Part shown: positions 6,390 through 7,072 of the stretch, piece after piece
Numbering within the stretch: position 1 is the stretch's first letter
Layout: every line of letters starts with the position of its first letter
Source: a virus
Virus genome (UHGV): UHGV-0138564
DNA length: 22,217 bases
Strand: one strand, 5' to 3'
Made by a program: the position numbers and the translations under genes
Notes under the pieces: model-generated
Seen by the model: the letters and a program-made list of their open reading frames with translations, nothing else
Databases searched by the model: none
What the model was told of the DNA's origin: nothing

Positions 6390-6749
6390 ATGAGTCTTTT
6401 GAATGACGTTCAGAAATTCATTGAAGCCCATCCGGGCTGTACTTCCGGAGACATTGCGGATGCTTTTGCAGGTTACTCACGGCAGCGCGTTCTGCAGTCA
6501 GCAAGCAAGTTACGTCAGAGTGGGCGTGTGGCTCACCGTTGTGAAGGAGATACACACAGACATTTCCCGCGCCTGACTGAGAGAGCGCAGGATCCGGAAC
6601 CACAACCAGTTCGTGAAACCAGACCTGTGCGCAATTTCTATGTCGGCACTAACGACTCGCGGGTGATTTTGTGCCTGACCCGCCAGGCGGAAGAACTGGA
6701 GTCCAGGGGCTTATACCGTCGTGCTGCAACGGTGTGGATGGCGGCATGA
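6390..6749 (+). CDS. Hypothetical small protein (119 aa), possible winged-helix
   Basis: ATG at 6390 with AGGGGG SD; lies where a P-type loader or helper gene would be, but is too small and has no Walker motifs. Confidence 0.4.
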   Translation: MSLLNDVQKFIEAHPGCTSGDIADAFAGYSRQRVLQSASKLRQSGRVAHRCEGDTHRHFPRLTERAQDPEPQPVRETRPVRNFYVGTNDSRVILCLTRQAEELESRGLYRRAATVWMAA

Positions 6750-7072
6750 CGACGTTAACTCAATGCCAGCAGCAGGTGCTGGATATGCTGATTTCTTATC
6801 AGAAAGAACGTGGCTTCCCGCCAACCAATCAGGAGGTGGCAACCATGCTGGGATACCGTTCAGTGAATGCAGCGGTGGAGCATCTTCGCGCACTGGAGAA
6901 AAAAGGCGTCATCACGATAAAGCGTGGCGTGGCCCGGGGCATCACGCTTCATACCGCGGTGAAGGACGACGACAGCGAGGCGGTCGGGATTATCCGCTCA
7001 CTGCTTGCCGGTGAGGAAAACGCAAGGCTGCGTGCAACCCACTGGTTACATGAGAGGGGCCTGAAAGTATGA
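6746..7072 (+). CDS. LexA DNA-binding-domain-like protein lacking the S24 peptidase domain (108 aa)
   Basis: Translation from ATG 6746 (MTTLTQCQQQVLDMLISYQKERGFPPTNQEVATMLGYRSVNAAVEHLRALEKKGVITIKRGVARGITL) aligns by eye along the recalled E. coli LexA N-terminal domain; ORF ends about 40 aa later with no Ser/Lys peptidase region. ATGA overlaps with both flanking genes. Confidence 0.65.
   Translation: MTTLTQCQQQVLDMLISYQKERGFPPTNQEVATMLGYRSVNAAVEHLRALEKKGVITIKRGVARGITLHTAVKDDDSEAVGIIRSLLAGEENARLRATHWLHERGLKV

What the first reader, a model, noticed from the sequence alone, without database searches (positions are those of the whole stretch)
6746..7072. LexA DNA-binding domain encoded without the autopeptidase domain
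The 108-aa product aligns by eye along the whole recalled LexA N-terminal winged-helix domain, including the recognition-helix region (SVNAAVEHLRALEKKGVI compared with SPNAAEEHLKALARKGVI in LexA), and then ends after about 40 more residues with no S24 Ser/Lys region. A RecA-insensitive LexA mimic made by a prophage could occupy SOS boxes and alter host SOS induction or the prophage's own induction threshold, or act as a decoy. It is tightly coupled by ATGA overlaps to the gene upstream and to rusA downstream.
Basis: partly seen in the sequence, partly recalled or inferred. Interest (0 to 1): 0.65.

Follow-up and report, generated by a model that had tools for sequence, protein, structure and literature searches.

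The report
Prophage LexA DNA-binding domain without protease
A lambdoid prophage encodes a short protein that copies the DNA-binding half of the host's SOS repressor LexA but lacks the self-cleaving half, so it probably binds SOS-type operators without responding to DNA damage; the family is common and already annotated, but its function has not been tested.

Summary
Window 6746..7072(+) encodes a 108-aa protein. Residues 1-69 are a full-length LexA winged-helix domain (Pfam PF01726, E=2.9e-19; 50% identical to E. coli LexA, model rmsd 0.9 Å). There is no S24 protease domain. Both ends overlap the neighbouring genes by ATGA.

It is not a broken lexA. The last ~35 residues form a conserved amphipathic two-helix hairpin shared by relatives down to ~40% identity (PHROG 362). 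The gene occurs in 2233 of 5426 complete E. coli genomes, where NCBI names it "LexA family transcriptional regulator".

The four base-contacting residues listed from the LexA-DNA crystal structure (S39, N41, A42, E45) are all kept; E44 is V.

The family has two genomic contexts:
- **This window's type:** the early-right operon, with the order [DNA methylase]→LexA-like→RusA.
- **29 related prophage loci:** a terminator, an SOS-box promoter, then usually a DinI homologue, a small protein (PHROG 1813) and the LexA-like gene. This resembles the validated LexA-controlled Gifsy antirepressor operon.

This prophage also carries two near-consensus SOS boxes.

Best reading (about 45%): a dimeric LexA surrogate that RecA cannot inactivate and that acts at SOS-type operators. 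Dimerisation, DNA binding and physiological effect are untested. The only characterised analogue, GIL01 gp6, is an activator with its own operator.

The parts
6746..7072 (+). LexA-like gene, 108 aa plus stop. 100% identical in DNA to the gene for WP_000210170.1, 'LexA family transcriptional regulator'.
6746..6952 (+). Residues 1-69: LexA-type winged helix-turn-helix (helices 6-22, 28-35, 40-52; wing strands 56-58 and 66-68).
   Evidence: Pfam PF01726 1-65/65; PDB alignment 2-69; model and Foldseek match to 3jso at 0.9 Å
6860..6901 (+). Residues 39-52: recognition helix SVNAAVEHLRALEK. S39, N41, A42 and E45 are as in E. coli LexA; E44 is V and P40 is V.
6968..7054 (+). Residues 75-103: two-helix hairpin (helices 75-88 and 93-103) specific to this family. 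Positions 82, 83, 86, 87, 100 and 101 are always hydrophobic, and A97 is invariant. Proposed dimerisation module (inferred).
7069..7458 (+). rusA (Holliday-junction resolvase), translationally coupled by ATGA. It is the downstream neighbour (directly, or after one inserted gene) in all 13 related loci of this window's context type (one has no detectable rusA), and in the two type II loci whose genes were listed (L088, L090).
6384..6749 (+). PerC/YfdN-like ORF, 3'-truncated in this window. The deletion junction lies at 6737-6747, and the dam methylase gene that normally sits between this ORF and the LexA-like gene is absent.
3965..3984 (.). Near-consensus SOS box TACTGTTTTTACATACAGTA inside the linker-coding part of the cI (S24-type) repressor gene (3501..4193, minus strand). 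Candidate operator for host LexA and, by inference, for the LexA-like protein.
11757..11776 (.). Near-consensus SOS box TACTGTAAAAATAAACAGTG over codons 3-10 of the DNA methyltransferase ORF (11749..12801, plus strand), downstream of Q. Candidate operator (inferred).

Best explanation
The gene encodes a stand-alone LexA-type DNA-binding protein that cannot cleave itself: a LexA winged helix joined by a six-residue linker to a conserved two-helix hairpin.

**Proposed mechanism**
1. The gene lies in the early-right operon (cro, cII-like, O-like replication gene, ... LexA-like, rusA ... Q). It is therefore made only after the prophage cI repressor is inactivated, or on infection.
2. The hairpin dimerises the protein.
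3. The dimer binds CTGT-type inverted repeats (SOS boxes) through the same recognition-helix contacts as LexA.
4. It has no S24 domain, so RecA* cannot inactivate it. It would re-impose repression at LexA-controlled promoters at the time host LexA is being destroyed. Targets would include host SOS genes and the phage's own boxes in cI and at the methyltransferase gene.

**Shown here:** the domain architecture, retention of the base-contact residues, conservation of the tail, the operon position, the SOS boxes, and the linkage of relatives to SOS-box promoters.

**Inferred:** dimerisation, operator specificity, repression rather than activation, and the benefit to the phage. Possible benefits are damping SOS-induced toxins and mutagenic polymerases, blocking rival LexA-controlled prophages, or keeping cI transcription blocked.
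For: **Domain and contacts.** Full-length LexA_DNA_bind domain, 50% identical to E. coli LexA over residues 2-69, with a gamma-proteobacterial type recognition helix. A review citing structure 3JSO lists the direct-readout residues as S39, N41, A42 and E45. All four are present.

**No route to RecA inactivation.** There is no S24 domain, and the LexA equivalog score is below its cutoff.

**The tail.** It is conserved down to ~40% identity, with a strict amphipathic pattern and predicted helices at pLDDT about 85. In the LexA-DBD genetic system, the LexA DNA-binding domain alone fails to repress sulA-lacZ, while fusion to any homodimerising module restores repression (PMC7160566). The architecture seen here is therefore sufficient in principle.

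**SOS boxes in this prophage.** Two boxes score 25.6 and 22.8 on a position-weight matrix (PWM) whose 20 training boxes span 12.6-27.0. The box in cI is an island of conservation inside a diverged linker: the cI genes of the window and L087 are 69% identical in DNA.

**Linkage to SOS control in relatives.** All 29 loci of the second context type carry a strong CTGT-N8-ACAG box upstream of the LexA-like gene. In 28 it lies within 1.5 kb, mostly at -437 to -689; in the other, L107, the boxes lie 1.9-2.4 kb upstream. In the examples read, the box is preceded by a terminator and overlaps a -10 element. The rate in shuffled sequence is 0.0008 per kb. These operons also carry DinI homologues (20 of 29 loci), and some carry a HumD/UmuD'-like fragment under its own box. 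The L113 promoter and dinI are homologous to the experimentally LexA-controlled Gifsy-2 operon.

**Synteny.** Gene order around the LexA-like gene is conserved while the replication modules differ.
Against: - There are no binding, dimerisation or expression data of any kind.
- E44, listed as a DNA contact in the older NMR-based model, is V here and is never acidic in the family.
- E45 is replaced (L, I, G or D) in several lineages, including a large type II subclade. Canonical CTGT recognition is therefore not under the absolute constraint seen in real LexA.
- L083-L086 and L089 have no SOS box within the sequence held.
- GIL01 gp6 shows that a truncated LexA homologue can evolve a new operator and act as an activator.
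- In Gifsy prophages, deleting the genes flanking the antirepressor (dinI, irsA) had no measurable effect on induction. irsA is a different protein (DUF1367).
- The spacing and orientation of half-sites imposed by a new dimer interface are unknown.
Confidence: 0.45

Rival explanations
1. Phage-specific regulator with a diverged operator, like GIL01 gp6. The captured LexA domain now recognises a phage palindrome that is not the host SOS box, and it activates or represses one phage promoter, for example as a timing device between early and late genes.
For: - gp6 is the only characterised precedent. It binds GaCACA..TGTGaC, not the Bacillus LexA box, and activates the late promoter.
- gp6 also sits in a LexA-repressed early operon, which parallels the type II context.
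- Positions 44 and 45 of the recognition helix vary between lineages.
- Some loci lack SOS boxes.
Against: - No recurrent non-SOS palindrome was found in intergenic DNA of ten divergent loci. The recurrent ones lie in conserved coding sequence. The power of this search is low.
- The window protein keeps all four crystal-defined LexA contacts.
- These phages already have a Q antiterminator for late genes.
Confidence: 0.3
2. Accessory factor in DNA metabolism rather than a transcription factor. The winged helix works with RusA, the neighbouring DNA methylases, or both, for example by targeting or restraining them on replicating or branched phage DNA.
For: - The gene is upstream of rusA, directly or after one inserted gene, in all but one of the type I loci, and in L088 and L090.
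- It often follows a Dam or Dcm-type methylase, across ~40-100% protein identity, while replication modules vary.
- Translational coupling by ATGA.
Against: - The type II locus read in full (L113) has no rusA between the LexA-like gene and the DUF968 gene; the window RusA found no match in any type II locus, although L088 and L090 carry divergent rusA genes.
- This window lacks the methylase.
- The recognition helix is conserved in a sequence-specific way.
- Conserved module order is common in lambdoid nin regions without functional coupling (general knowledge).
Confidence: 0.1
3. Modulator acting through protein contacts, for example titrating LexA, RecA* or a phage repressor through the hairpin. 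It would belong functionally with the DinI-like and HumD-like SOS modulators encoded beside it in type II prophages.
For: - Co-location with DinI and UmuD'-like genes under SOS boxes.
- Homology to LexA runs through the hinge to the position of the cleavage site, with A88-G89 aligned to LexA A84-G85.
Against: - LexA contacts RecA* and dimerises through the C-terminal domain, which is absent here (PMC9926225 abstract).
- The Ala-Gly pair is not conserved in the family and lies in a predicted helix.
- This reading does not explain why the DNA-contact residues are conserved.
Confidence: 0.08
4. Non-functional remnant of a captured lexA gene.
For: The gene is truncated relative to LexA.
Against: - Length and tail are conserved in relatives of 38-96% identity from Escherichia, Citrobacter, Salmonella, Hafnia and prophages of other enterobacteria.
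- It matches PHROG 362 over its full length (E=1e-59).
- It is intact in thousands of genomes.
Confidence: 0.02

Closest known systems
E. coli LexA (N-terminal domain; PDB 1lea, 3jso)
   Same: The winged-helix fold matches at 0.9 Å with 50% identity. The numbering is the same, and S39, N41, A42 and E45 are retained. Homology continues through the hinge to about residue 91.
   Different: There is no S24 Ser/Lys protease and dimerisation domain, so no RecA*-stimulated self-cleavage is possible. A new two-helix tail replaces it. E44 is V and P40 is V. The gene is phage-borne and expressed from a phage operon.
GIL01 (Bacillus tectivirus) gp6, a truncated LexA homologue that activates late promoter P3 (PMC6182141)
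   Same: Both are phage-encoded LexA DNA-binding domains without the protease domain, encoded in the early gene set. In GIL01, and in the type II relatives found here, that operon is itself LexA-repressed.
   Different: gp6 is 66 aa with no C-terminal hairpin. BLASTP finds no pairwise similarity to the window protein. Its best PHROG is 3502; it matches PHROG 362 only weakly (2.8e-5) over the winged helix. This looks like an independent capture from a different host's lexA. gp6's operator and activator role are established; nothing is established for this protein.
Engineered LexA-DBD fusions (Dmitrova 1998 and Daines & Silver 2000 system, as used in PMC7160566)
   Same: Both join a LexA DNA-binding domain to a heterologous dimerisation module. 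In the engineered system this arrangement represses sulA, and the domain alone does not.
   Different: Those are laboratory constructs. Dimerisation by the natural hairpin is only inferred here.
LexA-controlled dinI-antirepressor-irsA operon of Gifsy prophages (Lemire et al. 2011, PMC3121763)
   Same: Type II relatives have the same layout: a terminator, an SOS-box promoter, dinI, a small protein, then one more gene. The promoter and DinI are homologous (DinI 65% identical), as is the downstream PHROG 1212 gene.
   Different: The Gifsy cassette gftA plus irsA (DUF1367) is replaced by PHROG 1813 plus the LexA-like gene. This window's copy is not in such an operon; it lies in the early-right operon of a prophage with a cleavable cI.
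Non-cleavable LexA alleles (lexA3 Ind-)
   Same: The predicted functional outcome is the same: SOS boxes stay occupied despite RecA* activity. lexA3 blocks Gifsy induction.
   Different: lexA3 is a full-length host protein with a cleavage-site mutation. This protein is a separate phage product, made only when the phage is derepressed.

Membership tests
LexA repressor (NCBIfam TIGR00498 equivalog) | N-terminal LexA winged-helix DNA-binding domain (PF01726) | tested here: met
   E=2.9e-19 over 1-65/65; structural match to 3jso at 0.9 Å
LexA repressor (NCBIfam TIGR00498 equivalog) | C-terminal S24 peptidase and dimerisation domain with Ser119/Lys156 | tested here: not met
   No Peptidase_S24 hit at E<=1. 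The protein ends at residue 108 and rusA follows immediately.
LexA repressor (NCBIfam TIGR00498 equivalog) | Whole-protein score above the curated cutoff | tested here: not met
   70.8 bits against a cutoff of 110.95; only positions 1-91 of 203 match
LexA repressor (NCBIfam TIGR00498 equivalog) | Ala-Gly cleavage site used in RecA*-stimulated autocleavage | tested here: inconclusive
   A88-G89 aligns with LexA A84-G85. The pair is not conserved in the family, lies in a predicted helix, and has no protease in cis.
LexA repressor (NCBIfam TIGR00498 equivalog) | Binds CTGT-N8-ACAG as a dimer and represses SOS genes | not testable with these tools
   Only indirect evidence: contact residues S39, N41, A42 and E45 are kept, and SOS boxes are present in the prophage.
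PHROG 362 / NCBI 'LexA family transcriptional regulator' (short phage form) | Full-length match of about 106 aa, including the C-terminal hairpin | tested here: met
   E=1.1e-59 over 1-108 against 1-106/106; identical to WP_000210170.1; tail conserved in alignment A2
PHROG 362 / NCBI 'LexA family transcriptional regulator' (short phage form) | Position in the lambdoid nin-type region upstream of rusA, DUF968 and Q | tested here: met
GIL01 gp6-type truncated LexA activator | Sequence membership in the gp6 family | tested here: not met
   No BLASTP alignment. gp6 belongs to PHROG 3502 and touches PHROG 362 only weakly over the winged helix.
GIL01 gp6-type truncated LexA activator | Phage-encoded LexA DNA-binding domain lacking the protease | tested here: met
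GIL01 gp6-type truncated LexA activator | Binds its own non-SOS palindrome and activates a late promoter | not testable with these tools
   The palindrome searches found no candidate, but their power is low.
LexA-regulated prophage induction operon (Gifsy type) | SOS box and promoter immediately upstream, preceded by a terminator | tested here: not met
   Not present upstream of the window gene: no box and no promoter-like site. An SOS box lies within 1.5 kb upstream in 28 of the 29 type II relatives, and 1.9-2.4 kb upstream in the other; the terminator and promoter were read in L088, L090 and L113.

The most novel reading that the evidence does not exclude
Enterobacterial lambdoid phages deploy a dimeric LexA surrogate that RecA cannot inactivate, as an "SOS reset" factor. 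It would be made once the phage is derepressed. In type II prophages it would be made directly from a LexA-controlled promoter, together with a DinI homologue and a candidate antirepressor. It would re-close the host SOS regulon, and its own operon, while RecA* is still active. The consequences would be a pulse of antirepressor, silencing of SOS-induced toxins and mutagenic polymerases, and blocking of rival prophages that depend on LexA cleavage. Because the gene is in about 41% of complete E. coli genomes, it would be a common, hidden determinant of SOS dynamics, prophage cross-talk and antibiotic-induced Stx-phage behaviour.
Probability: 0.25. Interest if true: 0.75.

Novelty: new variant of a known kind. 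Interest (0 to 1): 0.5.

Why it matters
LexA cleavage is the switch for the SOS response, for induction of many prophages (including Stx phages after antibiotics), and for SOS-linked mutagenesis and persistence. A phage protein that binds LexA operators but cannot be cleaved would let the phage override that switch from inside an induced cell.

The family is present in about 41% of complete E. coli genomes and in cultivable phages (SfII, SfV, mEp460, cdtI, Kati, Stx2 phages). The idea can therefore be tested directly with a sulA-lacZ assay and a single-gene deletion.

The comparison made here adds a specific prediction: in many related prophages the gene belongs to a LexA-controlled operon with a DinI homologue and a probable antirepressor, which suggests a feedback role. 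If the protein instead turns out to have its own operator, it would be a second, independent case, after GIL01 gp6, of a phage converting the host LexA domain into a private regulator.

Tried and rejected
- **Dimer modelling.** Dimerisation therefore rests only on the conservation pattern.
- **IrsA.** I suspected that irsA, the third gene of the Gifsy LexA-controlled operon, was this LexA-like protein. It is not: STM1020 is DUF1367.
- **Antirepressor identity.** I tested whether the small PHROG 1813 protein is a homologue of the Gifsy antirepressor region. BLASTP and tblastn found no similarity. Its antirepressor role is inferred from position only.
- **Private operator.** I looked for a non-SOS operator using inverted repeats in window 3000-12900 and exact 5-mer-arm palindromes shared by ten divergent type I loci. 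Only ori-type repeats in the O-like gene and palindromes in conserved coding sequence turned up.
- **Internal promoter.** The promoter scan found none ahead of the gene.
- **Defence libraries.** PADLOC gave only a weak winged-helix hit to a CARF model.
- **Distant relatives.** The viral-contig scan with P0242 returned nothing. The scan with alignment A2 returned only near-identical E. coli prophages.
- **Literature.** Ten searches found no functional study of the enterobacterial family. A Stx-phage survey merely lists it as a pfam01726 "pham" (phage protein family). The LexA-DNA crystal paper itself was not held, so the contact residues come from secondary sources.
- **Caveat on the scoring matrix.** The SOS-box PWM was built from E. 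coli boxes recalled from memory, so its scores are indicative. All boxes cited from the window, L087, L088, L090 and the upstream positions of the type II loci contain exact CTGT-N8-ACAG.
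Full report
**1. The observation**

Window 6746..7072(+) is an ORF of 108 codons. Its ATG shares ATGA with the stop codon of the upstream ORF, and its stop shares ATGA with the rusA start codon.

The product matches the whole Pfam LexA_DNA_bind model (PF01726; 1-65/65; E=2.9e-19; 69 bits against a cutoff of 23.7). It aligns residue for residue with E. coli LexA over positions 2-69 at E~1e-15 to 1e-16. An AlphaFold2 model built on a 21-sequence alignment (mean pLDDT 83) superposes on LexA in the LexA-DNA crystal structure 3jso at 0.9 Å over 68 columns, with 50% identity.

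No S24 peptidase domain is detectable. The NCBIfam LexA equivalog covers only positions 1-91 of 203 and scores below its cutoff (70.8 against 110.95 bits).

**2. A stable family, not a broken lexA**

- The protein matches PHROG 362 ("transcriptional repressor", 106 positions) over its full length at E=1e-59.
- The DNA is found in 2233 of 5426 complete E. coli genomes, where PGAP calls it "LexA family transcriptional regulator" (WP_000210170.1).
- It is present in cultivated phages: SfII, SfV, SfIV, mEp460, mEp390, cdtI, Kati and several Stx2 phages.
- An exhaustive profile search found full-length relatives of 104-135 aa at 41-52% identity.

In the alignment of these relatives (A2), the region after the winged helix is conserved as a pattern. 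Positions 82, 83, 86, 87, 100 and 101 are always hydrophobic. A97 is invariant and A93 nearly so. The model predicts two helices there (75-88 and 93-103, pLDDT about 85), joined to the winged helix by a short linker of low confidence.

Homology to LexA runs on through the hinge, and A88-G89 aligns with the LexA cleavage site A84-G85. That pair is not conserved across the family.

**3. DNA-contact residues**

A review that cites the 3JSO structure lists S39, N41, A42 and E45 as the residues that read CTGT. An older list, based on the NMR model, adds E44.

The window protein has S39, N41, A42 and E45. E44 is V.

Across the family, S39 is invariant and N41 nearly so. Position 44 is never acidic. 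E45 is kept in most lineages; for example, SSPNAAAEHLKALERKG differs from LexA in this helix mainly at position 44. E45 is replaced in others, including a large subclade with NAVALH.

For this window's protein, CTGT-type recognition is therefore plausible. The family as a whole is not constrained the way real LexA is.

**4. Genomic context: two types**

*Type I.* This covers the window, L083-L087, L089 and L118-L123. The gene lies in the early-right operon of a lambdoid prophage. The order is cI / cro / cII-like / replication genes / [PerC-like] / [Dam or Dcm-type methylase] / LexA-like / RusA / [KilA-N or Ant] / DUF968-HNH / Q. It is usually coupled to rusA by ATGA. This order holds although the replication modules differ between loci. 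No promoter-like site or SOS box precedes the window gene.

In this window a 782-bp segment is missing relative to E. coli 120899, between 11-bp direct repeats; SfII shows the same gap. The deletion removes the dam gene and the 3' end of the PerC-like gene. Other E. coli genomes have a full PerC-like gene abutting the LexA-like gene without dam.

*Type II.* This covers L088, L090-L117 and L124, 29 loci in all. The LexA-like gene is preceded by a small PHROG 1813 protein and, in 20 of the 29 loci, by a DinI homologue (PF06183, E=1e-23 in L113).

A strong CTGT-N8-ACAG box lies upstream of the LexA-like gene in all 29 loci. In 28 it is within 1.5 kb, mostly 437-689 nt upstream; in the other, L107, the boxes lie 1.9-2.4 kb upstream. 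In L088, L090 and L113 the box follows a terminator-like hairpin and overlaps a -10-like element. Boxes of this quality occur at 0.0008 per kb in shuffled sequence. The spacers differ between lineages while the half-sites are kept.

Some loci have a second SOS box in front of a HumD/UmuD'-like fragment that lacks the catalytic motif. The two type II loci with long flanks, L088 and L090, have short cI repressors of 128-132 aa without an S24 domain.

The L113 promoter and dinI are homologous to the Gifsy-2 dinI promoter region, with nearly the same -35, -10 and box, and DinI is 65% identical. Lemire et al. showed experimentally that this Gifsy promoter is LexA-controlled and drives dinI, the antirepressor gftA and irsA. 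irsA is DUF1367, not a LexA homologue.

In effect, gftA plus irsA in Gifsy is replaced in type II prophages by PHROG 1813 plus the LexA-like gene. The downstream PHROG 1212 gene is shared. I infer from position only that PHROG 1813 is the antirepressor.

**5. SOS boxes in this prophage**

The window holds two exact CTGT-N8-ACAG sites, against about 0.3 expected from base frequencies (my calculation). The one-mismatch count is not significant. Both sites extend to near-consensus 20-mers.

- **TACTGTTTTTACATACAGTA (3965-3984).** This lies inside the linker-coding part of the S24-type cI gene. It recurs at the same codon position in SfII and in L087. The L087 cI gene is only 69% identical to the window's, and its linker is otherwise diverged. 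The amino acids encoded by the spacer change (C/Y/F, K/I) while the half-sites are kept.
- **TACTGTAAAAATAAACAGTG (11757-11776).** This covers codons 3-10 of a DNA methyltransferase ORF downstream of Q. A near-identical box precedes an N6_N4 methyltransferase gene in L090.

Host LexA is the obvious ligand for both. The LexA-like protein is a candidate second ligand.

**6. Mechanism**

The most economical reading has four parts. The hairpin dimerises the protein. The dimer binds SOS-type inverted repeats. Lacking the S24 domain, it is insensitive to RecA*. It therefore restores occupancy of LexA operators after host LexA has been cleaved.

The LexA-DBD genetic system shows that this architecture is sufficient in principle. 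The LexA DNA-binding domain alone does not repress sulA-lacZ, and fusion to any homodimerising module does.

In type I phages the protein would appear after cI inactivation. In type II prophages it would be made from the same LexA-controlled transcript as the presumed antirepressor, which suggests delayed negative feedback.

I put this at about 0.45. Dimerisation, operator specificity and the sign of regulation are all inferred.

**7. Rivals**

- **A private operator, as with GIL01 gp6 (0.3).** gp6 is a 66-aa LexA-domain protein, encoded in a LexA-repressed early operon, that binds its own palindrome and activates the late promoter. gp6 is not a family member: there is no BLASTP similarity, and it belongs to a different PHROG. 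The two look like independent captures of host lexA. My palindrome searches found no private operator, but they have little power.
- **A role with RusA or the methylases (0.1).** This rests on synteny alone. It is weakened because the window lacks the methylase, and the type II locus read in full (L113) has no rusA next to the gene.
- **Action through protein contacts (0.08).**
- **A dead remnant (0.02).** This is contradicted by the conservation.

**8. Novelty**

I found no functional study of the enterobacterial family. A Stx-phage survey only lists it as a pfam01726 "pham" (phage protein family).

The protein itself is already annotated, and phage-borne truncated LexA homologues are a known kind (gp6). 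This is therefore a new variant of a known kind. Three features mark it out:
- a conserved C-terminal hairpin;
- retention of the host-type recognition contacts;
- an association, described here, with LexA-controlled DinI/antirepressor-type operons in related prophages.

Interest is moderate. The finding is common, cheap to test, and relevant to SOS dynamics and prophage cross-talk. It is not surprising in kind.

Noticed in passing
window 3965-3984 (inside cI, 3501..4193, minus strand): A near-consensus SOS box lies within the linker-coding region of the S24-type cI repressor gene. It is an island of conservation: the half-sites are kept while the spacer changes the encoded amino acids, across cI genes only 69% identical (window, SfII, L087). 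Its function is unknown. A roadblock to cI transcription or an internal promoter are possibilities. A -35/-10-like arrangement on the + strand (TTCACC-17-AATACT) is not conserved in L087.
   Followed up: partly
window 11757-11776 (5' end of DNA methyltransferase ORF 11749..12801, plus strand): A near-consensus SOS box overlaps codons 3-10 of a DPPY-type DNA methyltransferase gene located between Q and the lysis genes. An almost identical box (CACTGTAAAAATAAACAGTG) sits just upstream of an N6_N4 methyltransferase in the unrelated prophage L090 (10739). It recurs in 22 of the 80 near-identical viral loci fetched with alignment A2.
   Followed up: partly
window 6737-6747 (junction); 6384..6749: Relative to E. 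coli 120899 the window lacks 782 bp between 11-bp direct repeats; SfII shows the same gap. The missing segment holds the whole dam methylase gene and the last ~44 codons of the PerC/YfdN-like regulator. The 12 best E. coli matches listed all align in two pieces, which suggests this exact junction is uncommon.
   Followed up: partly
window 5748-5810 (inside the O-like replication gene, 5446..6387): A cluster of inverted or iterated repeats (GTCAGATTCTGAC / GTCAAAATCTGAC / GACGCATCAAAATCTGAC...) coincides with a Ser/Asp/Lys-rich repetitive stretch of the protein. These are probably origin iterons, as in lambda O.
   Followed up: no
L113 1837-2206 (also L104, L107, L110, L111, L114, L117, L124): A separate SOS box drives a 109-aa HumD/UmuD'-like ORF (GFPSPAKDY... 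start) that lacks the GDSM catalytic serine motif. It is an apparently inactive S24 fragment under LexA control, next to the dinI / LexA-like operon.
   Followed up: partly
L088 7713-7961; L090 7724-7951; L113 2589-2894: A small PHROG 1813 protein (75-101 aa, no Pfam or NCBIfam hit) always sits between the SOS-box promoter (or dinI) and the LexA-like gene, in prophages whose cI lacks an S24 domain. It is a candidate LexA-controlled antirepressor, unrelated in sequence to the Gifsy-2 gftA region.
   Followed up: partly
proteins P0132, P0133, P0149, P0152, P0153, P0156 and others: The representative library contains proteins with two separate matches to the LexA DNA-binding domain in one chain (140-350 aa). 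These may be single-chain pseudo-dimers of the LexA winged helix.
   Followed up: no
L090 11794-13390; L088 5863-7232: Cargo genes lie beside the module. L090 has an AcrVA2-like gene and a Cas1-like gene downstream of the methyltransferase. L088 has an RNase-toxin gene (RNAse_A_bac) plus a gene with only a faint CdiI_2 match, just upstream of the SOS-box promoter.
   Followed up: no
window 3400-12900: Terminator-like hairpins are over-represented: 24 found against 9.6 ± 2.9 in shuffles. They include clear ones after cI (3463-3480, minus strand) and after Q (9667-9692, plus strand).
   Followed up: no
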